A DNA stretch of 64,000 nt. Source: Hormiphora californensis (taxonomy: Eukaryota > Animalia > Ctenophora). The stretch is taken from contig CM035362.1 of NCBI GenBank assembly GCA_020137815.1, forward strand, positions 806,001 through 870,000, read 5' to 3'. The position numbers and the translations under genes were made by a program. Below the pieces are notes generated by a model that did not search any database, had not been told where the DNA came from, and worked only from the letters and a program-made list of their open reading frames with translations. Shown one piece after another: positions 22,253-25,200 of the stretch; positions within the stretch are counted from its first letter, which is position 1; every line of letters starts with the position of its first letter.

Positions 22253-25200
22253 ATGAGTATAAGGTCCAACTATAATGAACACAGCCCTCTGACACCAGTA
22301 GAAGTTACCAGTGTCTCCAACGTAGTGAGTAGTAGTAGGACTTTTTAATAAGGGCTTTACATAAGGACAACTGCAGTTGATATTATCAATTAATAGATTC
22401 AGGTTAAATAACGATAACATTGGAAGAATACTTTGGAGTAAGACTGGTGCTCTTTGAGTAAATATGTTTTTTGTTTCAAACTTTTCAACACTACTTTAAA
22501 CAAATTGATTTGAGTTTCAGCAATATGGCGAAGTAACGGCCCCAAAGGGCAGAACGAATGAGAATGGCAAACGATCAAGCGGAGGAAACTAAACGAGGTT
22601 TAATATTCGATGTAACACGGTTCCTGACGTTGGCCAAGTGTGGAGAGAGCTCTGTTGCTGATAGTGTCAGAAAAACGATAAGGAGAAGTCCTGATTTTGA
22701 TGACACTGAAATACCGGCAGAAATTAAAATCAACCCGGTACACGCGAAGCGTGAGTTACAAATACTGATAGAAGAAATGTGCTGTGCGATCTTTCCTGTT
22801 CTAAAACACTTTCATCGTCATGTCTTTGCCGAGAAATCCCCTGAGATGGAACTCAAAGAGGAGCTCGACGAAGTCAAAGAGGAGCGAGATGAACTGTTGA
22901 GAAAATCTATCGAGTTGCAGGAGAAGGAGGAGAAATTGAAAGTGGAGTGTGATGATCTTTTGAGAAGAACTGTCAAGTTACAAGAGCAGGTTATTGAGCT
23001 TCAGGGCGAGCAACTGCATCGAGTTACCGAGACGGTACAGAAGGATTTACGTACTTTCTCAGCGGTCGTTACTCAGAATTGCAGGACTGCGTTTGCACCA
23101 AAAAAGATCCAGAAAGCCGTGGAAAAAGTTACGCACAAGCCAGTAGATACCGGCCCAGACAGAACGAAAAATCTGATGGTGTTTGGTCTACCGGAATGTG
23201 AGGATGAAACTGAATCTGTGTTAAAGGGTAAAATGGAAAATGTTTTGGCTGAGCTAGGCGAGAAACCGACGATAGAAGCTAAAAGGGTGGGTTTGAAACG
23301 GGGAGGAAGGGAGAGACCAGTGATTGTGAAGCTACAGAGTAAGGAAATGCTGCTGAGCCTTCTCCAGAAGGCAAAGCAGCTAAAACAGACAGAATCGTAC
23401 TGCGGTGTATATCTTGCAAGGGATATGTCCTTCGCAGAGAGAAGTGAGAGGAGAGAACTCCACCAGACATTGAAGGAGTTGAGGGATTCGAATCCTGGAG
23501 GACAATTCCGGGTACGGAGAGGGGTGATAGACTTTACATAATAGGCATCTTCAGTGAATATCTATTGGTGACCCGTATTTGCCCACAAAAAGGGGCTTAT
23601 TTATACAATTAAATTGTGTAAGTTATTAAGATTTAATAATAATAATAATGTTTCATAATATGCTATTGGCTACGTCATGCATAATTTTCAGGAGATGAAA
23701 ATGCGGCCGACGGTGAAAATCCTGCCTGAGACGGTCAGCCAAGAGCAGCAGGTTCCCGGCAGAATTTCTATGAAGAAGAAGAAGATAAAGAAAACGAAAA
23801 AGTTGGTGAGTAAAACGGGGCGCTGAGTAACTTTTAGCTTTACTTCGTGACAATATAAGGTCAGGCTTTGACAGTCACTTCGCTTTTGCCATGATTGGAA
23901 ATGTTACTATGCAACGACAACGGTCATCTTTGCAACGAGGCTCTGTCTTTGGAAGTATGATAGATATCTCATTTCTAAATGTAAGTAAGGGACTTCATAT
24001 TTGATGTTAATAATCGATATCTAATTAGAGACTCAATGGGTTAGCTTCTTGCATATAAATGGAAACATTACCGGTTCCTGGTAGAGACTCCGTCACGGTT
24101 GCATAGCTAAGGACTCAATAAGTCTTACCAGAGCAATCAGGGTCAAGTCCCGCATCGGGAATTAGAGATACATGTGTGTGCTGAGTGCTCCAGTACTTCT
24201 ATGACTGTATCTAGATTATGGTTTATTATTCCAACACAAACGAAAACAATGTAATGGTGTATAATATCTCTCCCTTCCGCCTTGCTCCGTAGCTATACAG
24301 TCTTTGTTTTTCTTGAAGTGTGTTTATATTGCAGCCACATCGTTCTGGCCATTTACTGTGCCCTAGTGCAGAGTTTAATTTGTATCAGTCTCTTGTGTTT
24401 CCGTCCTGCTATCCAGTTCCTGCGAGGGAGTTATTATTGAGAGGGCAGGAAAGGAGTTATTGAGAGGGCAGGAAGATGATTCGTGGTGCCTCAGGGAAAA
24501 TGACACCCAGTCATTGTCTCCTTTTCAACACTCTCATGGTAAGGATATTCGTTCAGTATTACAGCTGCTGAGTCATTATCTTCATTAGAGGTCATTATCG
24601 TAGTATGCATATACAAATACATGTGCTTGTTTTCAGCTCTCTAATGAACTCTGTGGTTGTATTGTTCTCTGTTTTGCCTTCTCGAATTGTGTTGTTGTAC
24701 TTCTAGCGATAATTGACCAGATCAGGCGACGTGACTATATTCACGATTCGTGTGATATTTGTATGGTATTCAGTGGCGGAGAATATTGTTTGTGGGGATT
24801 TGTCATTAAATGGATGATAGTATCTTTCATGTTAGACAGGTATGTATTGTTATGTAGTGAGAGAGGGTCCAGCAAGGTAAGGAATTGATTTTGTTATGTT
24901 GTAACCGGGACGCGGTTAGAAAGGGTCGAGCAAGGTGAGTTAGGAAGAATCTTAAATTATCTACTAGTACATAGCTACTAAGTACAAGTAACACATGCCT
25001 CTATTTTAGATCAGGTGTTAGCATGTTCTTAGTGTCCCATTTCACAATTATTTTTCCTATCATAGTTGATGTTTTCTCTCTACTGATCTTAGATCTAAAA
25101 TTTTCCAGTCGCATTGGTTATCGTTTAGTGCCTTGCGGTTTATTTCTCTCTGTATTTCTCTCTTACTATCCCTCTCTCTCCAAGTCTTGATAAGCCACTG

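What the first reader, a model, noticed from the sequence alone, without database searches (positions are those of the whole stretch)
22472..23655. Spliced-leader-capped, ORF1-only retroposon: a candidate trans-splicing-dependent mobile element
Seen: a 42-nt leader ending TTTGAG, 43 nt of UTR, an intronless 327-aa LINE ORF1-like CDS, no ORF2, a short 3' UTR, a (TAA)5 tail, and a 7-bp duplication TGTTTCA that overlaps the leader's first bases. It lies in sense orientation in TRPM intron 1. Known: the leader matches my recollection of the ctenophore spliced leader; SL exons normally occur only in SL RNA genes, followed by GT. Retroposed SL-bearing mRNAs are described in dinoflagellates and ORF1-only elements (HAL1) in vertebrates. 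Inference: a trans-spliced ORF1 mRNA was reverse-transcribed to its 5' end and inserted. The leader's final AG and the adjacent TTTCAG (22515-22520) could act as new trans-splice acceptors, letting a promoter-less copy be released and capped from host pre-mRNA. I know of no description of such a family in ctenophores.
Basis: partly seen in the sequence, partly recalled or inferred. Interest (0 to 1): 0.92.

Follow-up and report, generated by a model that had tools for sequence, protein, structure and literature searches.

The report
Spliced-leader-headed, ORF1-only comb jelly retroposon
A 1.2-kb jumping gene of a comb jelly, present at this site on some chromosomes and absent from others, carries at its front the short leader that these animals splice onto their messenger RNAs and encodes only an RNA-binding protein; it likely lets the host's leader-splicing machinery rebuild its front end instead of carrying a promoter of its own.

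Summary
Observation confirmed and extended. 22473-22514 matches the published ctenophore spliced leader (SL) at 41 of 42 nt. It is followed by a 43-nt UTR, an intact 327-aa ORF with the LINE-1 ORF1p fold, a 92-nt 3' UTR and (TAA)5, with no ORF2. One DNA run holds the exact empty allele (one TGTTTCA), so the 1,177-bp unit, SL included, is a polymorphic insertion. A second locus (L001) has unrelated flanks and the same anatomy: SL, same UTR, 318-aa ORF, TAA tail, dN/dS 0.23. The body is multicopy in two samples. Relatives down to 40% identity sit on 1.0-1.8-kb contigs (1 of 58 over 2.5 kb, against 17 of 24 for an ORF2-linked ORF1). So this is an ORF1-only, SL-headed retroposon family, not a one-off retrocopy or a truncated LINE. 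Open: whether SL-headed copies are themselves sources. Both full copies keep the TTTCAG behind the SL, so that acceptor did not make their templates, and the SL's own GAG is an atypical acceptor. 'Intron 1' is unproven; an outron fits as well. No RNA evidence. The scan had not found this family before; it holds other ORF1-only and SL-headed elements in other phyla.

The parts
22472..22478 (+). 5' copy of the 7-bp target-site duplication TGTTTCA; its last 6 nt are also SL nt 3-8 (junction microhomology)
   Evidence: single copy in the empty allele
22473..22514 (+). Spliced-leader exon, nt 3-44 of the published ctenophore SL, no GT donor behind it
   Evidence: 41 of 42 to the motif in PMC8527503; 37 of 38 to the SL of L001
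22515..22557 (+). 5' UTR: TTTCAG acceptor-like hexamer (22515-22520) and a 3-codon upstream ORF (MAK-stop from 22525), both kept in L001
22558..23541 (+). ORF1-like gene, 327 aa: helical N-terminal part, coiled coil (about 95-174), RRM and C-terminal domain (about 201-327)
   Evidence: L1 ORF1p E 4e-7; Z 10.6, rmsd 2.6, 88 aligned; dN/dS 0.23 vs L001
23542..23633 (+). 3' UTR, 80 of 90 aligned nt shared with L001; a 9-bp hairpin is predicted in both copies (weak: z -1.1 and -1.6)
23634..23648 (+). (TAA)5 tail; (TAA)8 in L001
23649..23655 (+). 3' copy of the target-site duplication
23656..23691 (+). 36 nt of host sequence ending in the TTTTCAG acceptor of the next exon (cis or trans acceptor, not resolved)
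23692..23805 (+). Likely first coding exon of the TRPM-like host gene (ATG at 23695); assignment inferred from position and splice sites
   Evidence: SLOG-in-TRPM exons further 3'

Best explanation
This is a polymorphic copy of a multicopy family of ORF1-only elements that begin with the host spliced leader and end in a TAA tail; it was likely pasted by a LINE reverse transcriptase acting in trans on a trans-spliced RNA, and copies likely propagate without a promoter of their own by being read from a host promoter and re-capped with a fresh leader at the leader/UTR junction. Steps. (1) Shown: 1,177-bp insertion with a 7-bp duplication and an empty allele; same anatomy at a second locus; protein under purifying selection; no ORF2. 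(2) Inferred, strong (about 0.9): target-primed reverse transcription from the TAA tail by an unidentified LINE ORF2p; the cDNA ran to the capped 5' end and joined the target through 6-7 nt of SL microhomology. (3) Inferred, good (about 0.7): the template got its SL by trans-splicing, since the join is exactly at the SL exon end and at the same element base in copies with dS 0.46. (4) Inferred, uncertain (about 0.45): a copy that lands in sense in an outron or another host transcript acts like an extra cistron; trans-splicing onto the old SL's terminal AG swaps the eroded leader for a new one and regenerates the full unit, while the host's own acceptor 36 nt downstream would rescue the host mRNA. 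ORF1p would be kept because it packages its own RNA and co-assembles with the helper's proteins (proposed for HAL1-type elements in PMC5786205).
For: Empty allele: run X1 record 1 (875 nt) joins 21850-22478 to 23661-23840 with 5 letters between, the length of 23656-23660. Second locus L001 with unrelated flanks: SL nt 7-44, UTR 43 of 48, CDS 811 of 957, 3' UTR 80 of 90, (TAA)8. Its post-tail 7-mer matches the SL bases at its 5' junction at 6 of 7 (chance about 0.016), like the window copy. dN/dS 0.23, bootstrap 0.16-0.33. The 3' UTR is better kept than synonymous sites (p 2e-5) and the tail is TAA, not poly(A): this fits selection for mobility, so parents are likely retroposed copies themselves. 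The SL is nearly unchanged while synonymous sites differ at 34% (37 of 38; p 2e-6). Both copies have lost 5' SL bases (2 and 6 nt), an erosion that trans-splicing would undo. Single contigs of the body have 6-23 times the depth of one flanking allele in two samples. The X1 contig of depth 507 spans the stop codon and 3' UTR. Family and wider clade lie on element-sized contigs. The 1.2 kb between the upstream gene's stop and the element holds no donor-like site scoring 7 of 9, whereas 6 of 7 host donors do and only 5 of 105 windows of that size lack one (post hoc). Two Pleurobrachia gene models place a relative directly 5' of a host coding region (PB1/PDZ protein; PSF3).
Against: No RNA evidence for any step. 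The SL's last AG is GAG, whereas 9 of 9 host acceptors are CAG, and a perfect TTTCAG lies 6 nt downstream; if that were used, daughters would lack it, and 3 of 3 observed junctions keep it. SL conservation is not significantly higher than that of the UTRs (37 of 38 vs 123 of 138, p 0.2), so constraint explains it as well as renewal. The window SL has one base unlike the published SL. L001 lies antisense to a 146-codon open frame, so sense position is no rule. The gene-model fusions can only show same-strand copies. Eight weaker donor-like sites (6 of 9) lie upstream, so a non-coding first exon is not excluded. No helper LINE was found: neither LINE in the window shares the 3' end. At 22873, 23049 and 23466 all laid depth in X1, X5 and X6 shows another letter, so the filled allele itself is seen only in the window's assembly. 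L001 may come from another species.
Confidence: 0.45

Rival explanations
1. Trans-spliced dead ends. Full-length ORF1-only masters carry their own promoter and outron with tandem acceptors; unspliced RNA makes new masters, and trans-spliced RNA makes the SL-headed, promoter-less copies seen here, a trans-splicing analogue of L1 SpIREs.
For: Explains why TTTCAG is kept (an ordinary YAG acceptor just upstream in the master) without a GAG acceptor. Spliced L1 integrants are known dead ends (PMC5860796, passages). About 30% of Hydra TE Iso-Seq reads carry an SL (PMC12220107).
Against: No longer form was seen: 57 of 58 contigs with a near-full ORF are under 2.5 kb, with a median 345 nt beyond the ORF. 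A short promoter and outron would still fit, and the 5' side of other copies was not resolved.
Confidence: 0.28
2. Captured head. The SL was acquired once and serves as an internal promoter or cap-proximal signal, like a SINE head; copies are transcribed from SL nt 1 with no new trans-splicing.
For: Keeps TTTCAG and needs no weak acceptor. SL and UTRs are about equally conserved. A promoter role has been proposed for retroposed dinoflagellate SL (PMC6050394).
Against: Both copies lack the first SL bases (2 and 6 nt), so the head would erode unless some copies are complete. The SL still matches the host SL (41 of 42 and 38 of 38) after dS 0.46 of divergence.
Confidence: 0.17
3. Retrocopies of a domesticated, trans-spliced ORF1-derived host gene family (L1TD1-like parent; dinoflagellate-style SL-tagged retrogenes).
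For: Purifying selection and SL capping are also expected of host genes; SL-tagged retrogenes are well known in dinoflagellates (PMC6050394).
Against: TAA-repeat tail in place of poly(A) at two loci; conserved 3' UTR; many divergent lineages each on element-sized contigs; several paralogous Pleurobrachia models at unrelated genes.
Confidence: 0.07
4. Truncated autonomous LINE, template-switch chimera with SL RNA, or assembly artefact.
For: The filled allele is seen only in the window's assembly.
Against: Stop codon, 92-nt UTR and tail follow ORF1 at two loci and in a high-depth contig. The join is at the exact SL exon end with no SL-intron sequence, at the same element base in independent copies. 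Exact duplication and empty allele.
Confidence: 0.03

Closest known systems
ORF1-present non-autonomous LINEs: HAL1 (L1 clade), HeT-A (Jockey clade), Ag-Sponge (CR1 clade); PMC5786205 and PMC5753468, passages read
   Same: One ORF1p, no ORF2, retroposed with a 3' tail, multicopy, protein under selection.
   Different: The passages describe them as internal-deletion derivatives that keep a LINE's 5' and 3' parts. Here the 5' end is a host SL exon plus 43-49 nt, and no parent LINE was identified.
SL-tagged retrogenes of dinoflagellates (PMC6050394, passages)
   Same: Retroposed RNA keeps the trans-spliced leader in DNA; repeated cycling and an SL promoter role have been proposed.
   Different: Those are ordinary host genes, often with tandem SL relics. 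Here a dedicated mobile family with a TAA tail and a single SL.
SL-bearing transposon sequences in Schistosoma mansoni (six genomic SL exons merged to TEs; PMC5832876) and SL-capped TE reads in Hydra (about 30%; PMC12220107)
   Same: TE RNAs are trans-spliced in animals, and genomic SL-TE fusions were noticed.
   Different: Passing observations (the S. mansoni authors could not exclude misassembly); in the passages read, no family with a fixed SL head, target duplications or an empty allele is described.
L1 SpIREs (PMC5860796, passages)
   Same: Retroposition of a spliced element RNA that loses 5' sequence.
   Different: Cis-spliced dead ends of an autonomous element; here the splice is in trans and adds a leader.
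SL-RNA-gene-targeting retrotransposons of trypanosomes (SLACS, CRE, CZAR; recalled, not read here)
   Same: Retrotransposon next to SL sequence.
   Different: Those insert into SL RNA gene arrays. Here the empty site has no SL, so the SL is part of the insertion.

Membership tests
ORF1-present non-autonomous LINE (HAL1-like) | Encodes a LINE ORF1p | tested here: met
   Top 11 Foldseek ranks are L1 ORF1p, E 4e-7; VIA Z 10.6, rmsd 2.6, 88 aligned; profile match to the ORF1 of the window's APE-RT LINE, 94% probability
ORF1-present non-autonomous LINE (HAL1-like) | No ORF2 between ORF1 and the tail | tested here: met
   Two loci read in full; contig-length contrast 1 of 58 vs 17 of 24
ORF1-present non-autonomous LINE (HAL1-like) | Retroposition marks (target duplication, tail) and several copies | tested here: met
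   Empty allele and 7-bp duplication; L001; depth ratios 6-23
ORF1-present non-autonomous LINE (HAL1-like) | 5' and 3' ends shared with an autonomous parent LINE | tested here: inconclusive
   No shared 3' or 5' UTR with the two LINEs in the window; no genome held; the 5' end is SL, not LINE UTR
HAL1 proper | Derived from the L1 clade | tested here: inconclusive
   The fold match to L1 ORF1p does not fix the clade; no linked RT to place; tree of ORF1s only
SL RNA gene | SL exon followed by a GT donor and intron part | tested here: not met
   Followed by TTTCAG in both loci; no Rfam match of note
SL-tagged retrogene (dinoflagellate type) | SL or SL relic in DNA ahead of an intronless CDS | tested here: met
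SL-tagged retrogene (dinoflagellate type) | Parent is an ordinary host gene; poly(A)-derived tail | tested here: not met
   TAA tail at both loci, transposon-type protein; a fixed parent locus could not be sought without a genome
SL-RNA-gene-targeting retrotransposon (SLACS/CRE type, recalled) | Inserted into an SL RNA gene | tested here: not met
   The empty allele has no SL; flanks of the two loci are unrelated
Trans-splicing-dependent element (proposed) | SL-headed genomic copies yield SL-capped RNA joined at the old SL's terminal AG | not testable with these tools
   Needs allele-resolved 5'-complete RNA reads

The most novel reading that the evidence does not exclude
A radiation of promoter-less, ORF1-only retroposons in ctenophores that parasitise spliced-leader trans-splicing. 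They sit in outrons and other host transcripts like extra cistrons, are cut out and capped by the host, and have their 5' end rebuilt from SL RNA in every cycle, which solves the 5'-erosion problem without an internal promoter. Many of the hundreds of genomic SL copies reported in ctenophore genomes would be heads of such elements, not SL RNA genes.
Probability: 0.4. Interest if true: 0.88.

Novelty: new variant of a known kind. Interest (0 to 1): 0.74.

Why it matters
Non-LTR retroelements must regenerate their 5' end and promoter after each round of copying; known answers are internal promoters, tandem promoters or captured small-RNA heads. A family whose head is the host's spliced leader points to another possible answer, and to a cost of trans-splicing that can be tested: it may let promoter-less parasites use host transcription while sparing the downstream gene. 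The family is young enough to be polymorphic and is under selection, so it is also a living case for why half-LINEs keep ORF1p. It offers a new reading of the 718 and 491 genomic SL copies reported in Hormiphora and Mnemiopsis (PMC8527503), and warns that ctenophore gene models can be fused to these elements (two Pleurobrachia examples).

Tried and rejected
No genome is held, so no copy census, orientation test or helper search beyond the window. Pfam on the protein and on 98 aligned relatives: no ORF1 family. PDB by sequence profile: only coiled-coil hits. Relatives in viral and prokaryotic collections, by protein and by SL motif: none. Search for fused forms of 617-2000 aa: none, weak evidence, and it missed the 671-aa fusion P0047 known. 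No RNA holder listed; run X9 (RNA only by guess) covered the SL bins alone, which says nothing on expression. SL followed by TTTCAG-like bases in a few X9 contigs suggested a longer SL variant; by my rough estimate chance would give about as many, so it is left as a lead. TTTCAG as a relic of an earlier SL: only 5 nt match, rejected. No exact duplication of 6 nt or more at L001; only the 6-of-7 match. Folding of the 5' and 3' ends is no better than shuffles (z -1.6 to +0.3). Rfam around the element: two chance-level hits. The 3' end is not shared with the two LINEs of the window; the one at 11944-16190 ends in TTA repeats. Summed depth was not used as copy number. The share of copies with the SL joined to the UTR, copies lacking TTTCAG, and the frequency of the 22507 variant were not measured and remain open. 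Derelle 2010 and Bao and Jurka 2010 are not held; supplements of PMC8527503 could not be read and may list the contexts of the 718 SL copies. PMC12221973, PMC3795323, PMC12460157 and PMC7986045 (term look-ups only) had nothing on this.

Full report
1. Observation. The leader equals nt 3-44 of the Hormiphora californensis SL printed in PMC8527503 (passages) at 41 of 42 positions and is the only such match in the window. The closest named relatives of this ORF (85-88% for the two best) and of the window's LINE ORF1 (94%) are Pleurobrachia bachei gene models, and the nearest Atlas clusters are mostly labelled Ctenophora. The host is therefore a ctenophore close to Pleurobrachia and Hormiphora. 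No genome is held.

2. It is an insertion. Four runs were laid on 21850-24300. In run X1 one 875-nt contig covers 21850-22478 and 23661-23840 with 5 letters between, the length of 23656-23660. This is the empty allele with a single TGTTTCA, so the insertion is 1,177 bp and includes the SL. The last 6 nt of the 5' duplicate are also SL nt 3-8, the microhomology expected where a cDNA end joins the target (established for target-primed reverse transcription; recalled). Caveat: at 22873, 23049 and 23466 all laid depth in X1, X5 and X6 shows another letter, so this copy's own letters are not seen in those contigs. Contigs drop rare paths, so absence is not shown.

3. It is a family. Single contigs of the body have about 23 and 20 times (X1 records 5 and 4), 6-7 times (X5) and 9 times (X6) the depth of one flanking allele; X5 and X6 are one sample, and these are rough ratios. 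X1 record 5 runs through the stop codon into the same 3' UTR. The metagenome scan gave 1 locus from 148 candidate stretches. L001 has unrelated flanks, SL nt 7-44 in the published form, the same 5' UTR (43 of 48), a 318-aa ORF, the same 3' UTR (80 of 90) and (TAA)8. Its first 7 nt after the tail match the SL bases at its 5' junction at 6 of 7 (chance about 0.016): likely the same 7-nt stagger with SL microhomology, though no empty allele is at hand. A third copy, seen as a joint in X1 and X6, has the SL end and UTR start joined to 22645. Between the window copy and L001, dS is 0.46, dN 0.105, dN/dS 0.23 (bootstrap 0.16-0.33; 318 codons).

4. The protein is a LINE ORF1p. Pfam and PDB sequence searches fail. 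The model (pLDDT 83.6, 98 sequences) has a coiled coil at about 95-174 and an RRM plus C-terminal domain. Foldseek's first 11 ranks are human L1 ORF1p (best E 4e-7); VIA ranks it 1-3 of 48,161 (Z 10.6, rmsd 2.6, 88 aligned). A profile also matches the ORF1 of the window's APE-RT LINE (94%). The clade of origin is not fixed.

5. ORF1-only across a wide clade. The word search found 14 relatives and the 50% library 919 at E up to 0.001. In a 54-row tree the window protein lies in a 13-row clade (100/100) inside a 25-row clade (100/99), far from the 9 rows of the window LINE's ORF1 group. Contig lengths were compared for listed cluster members of 270 aa or more with a length on record. Family and wider clade (15 clusters): median 1,283 nt, 1 of 58 over 2.5 kb. 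Control, relatives of the ORF2-linked ORF1 (8 of 10 clusters; two clusters on contigs of 8-178 kb were left out): median 2,869 nt, 17 of 24 over 2.5 kb, many at 4.3-5.1 kb. By cluster, 1 of 15 against 5 of 8, p 0.009. Rows are not independent, the DNA of these contigs was not read apart from L001, and ORF2 was shown only for the window's control element. An SL head is shown only for the three copies above.

6. How the leader gets there. The SL joins at its exact exon end and at the same element base in all three copies, which points to trans-splicing, not template switching. The SL is almost unchanged (37 of 38) where synonymous sites differ at 34% (p 2e-6), but not significantly more than the UTRs (123 of 138, p 0.2). 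The TAA tail and the conserved 3' UTR suggest that the parents are retroposed elements under selection for mobility, not host genes. If so, a parent is itself SL-headed and has only SL plus 43-49 nt ahead of the ORF. All 9 host acceptors read by eye end in CAG; the SL ends in GAG; TTTCAG follows. Splicing at TTTCAG would delete it, yet 3 of 3 junctions keep it. Three readings remain: replacement of the old SL at its GAG (0.45), promoter-bearing masters that shed SL-headed dead ends (0.28; compare SpIREs, PMC5860796), and a captured SL acting as a promoter head (0.17; compare PMC6050394). I favour the first because it restores the 5' bases that both copies have lost and needs no unseen longer form, but no RNA data test it.

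7. Position. The downstream gene is TRPM-like. The insertion ends 36 nt before a TTTTCAG acceptor, with an ATG at the fourth base of that exon. Between the upstream gene's stop and the element no site scores 7 of 9 against a donor consensus, while 6 of 7 host donors do and 5 of 105 windows of that size lack one; eight sites score 6. This leans to an outron but is post hoc and crude. Two Pleurobrachia models fuse a relative 5' of a host coding region, an ascertained set. L001 lies antisense to an open frame.

8. Known kinds. ORF1-only non-autonomous LINEs are known (HAL1, HeT-A, Ag-Sponge; PMC5786205, PMC5753468, passages). SL-tagged retrogenes are known in dinoflagellates. Trans-spliced TE RNAs are reported in Hydra, and six genomic SL-TE fusions were noted in S. 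mansoni. Ten literature searches (listings and abstract starts, plus the passages named) showed no SL-headed ORF1-only family and none in ctenophores. Derelle 2010, Bao and Jurka 2010, the supplements of PMC8527503 and Repbase were not available. PMC8527503 counts 718 and 491 genomic SL copies without classifying them in the passages read. The scan's notes hold no look-alike and three unchecked comparators in other phyla: a U2-headed ORF1-only family, an ORF1-only element inside tunicate SL genes, and SL-headed dinoflagellate retrocopies.

9. Verdict. A real, polymorphic member of an apparently undescribed family: SL-headed, ORF1-only, TAA-tailed retroposons of ctenophores (about 0.9). New variant of a known kind. 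Dependence on trans-splicing in every cycle is the best single mechanism but unproven (0.45). Interest 0.74.

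Noticed in passing
table 7, position 22514-22516: In the three DNA runs the best-supported loose ends behind the SL have a consensus starting CTG (16, 17 and 11 contigs), not GT, with a second group after SL+TT (4 and 3 contigs). 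Suggests further SL-headed repeat families; agreement is low (0.43-0.78).
   Followed up: no
table 5, 22529 to 22645: A copy about 90% identical joins the SL end and first 15 UTR nt to 22645, skipping 115 nt; seen in X1 and X6.
   Followed up: partly
table 5c, 22502 to 22473: One X1 contig goes back from SL nt 32 to the SL start with two letters between: a partial tandem SL in DNA.
   Followed up: no
P0031 and P0047 (Pleurobrachia bachei gene models): ORF1 relatives fused 5' of a PB1/PDZ (Par6-like) protein and of PSF3: likely element insertions merged into host gene models.
   Followed up: partly
L001:20-460, minus strand: A 146-codon open, GC-rich, glutamine-rich frame runs up to the element's 5' junction and 11 codons of the other flank are open in the matching phase: the copy may interrupt a coding exon in antisense.
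   Followed up: partly
window 11944-16190: Intact two-ORF APE-RT LINE (ORF1 94% identical to a P. bachei model) ending in a small hairpin and TTA repeats, apparently nested in a DCN1-like gene (UBA-like exon at 4576, last exon near 21166-21270).
   Followed up: partly
window 34046-39238: Second LINE within the TRPM-like gene; 35380-36216 is 99.6% identical to 45843-46679, which also separates two parts of an LDL-receptor-repeat, GPCR-like ORF (43134-45875, 46671-47198).
   Followed up: no
window 21587-21810: MITE-like element with 22-nt terminal inverted repeats, 660 nt upstream of the finding.
   Followed up: partly
window 40544-41782: Tandem array of a 69-nt unit with long open frames on both strands.
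   Followed up: no
window 5878-10477 and 49551-54901: Two clusters of related cysteine-containing (Sushi-like, by eye) and other repeated exons on opposite strands, 75-89% identical.
   Followed up: no
window 22525-22536 and L001:509-520: A three-codon upstream ORF directly behind the SL is kept in both copies.
   Followed up: no
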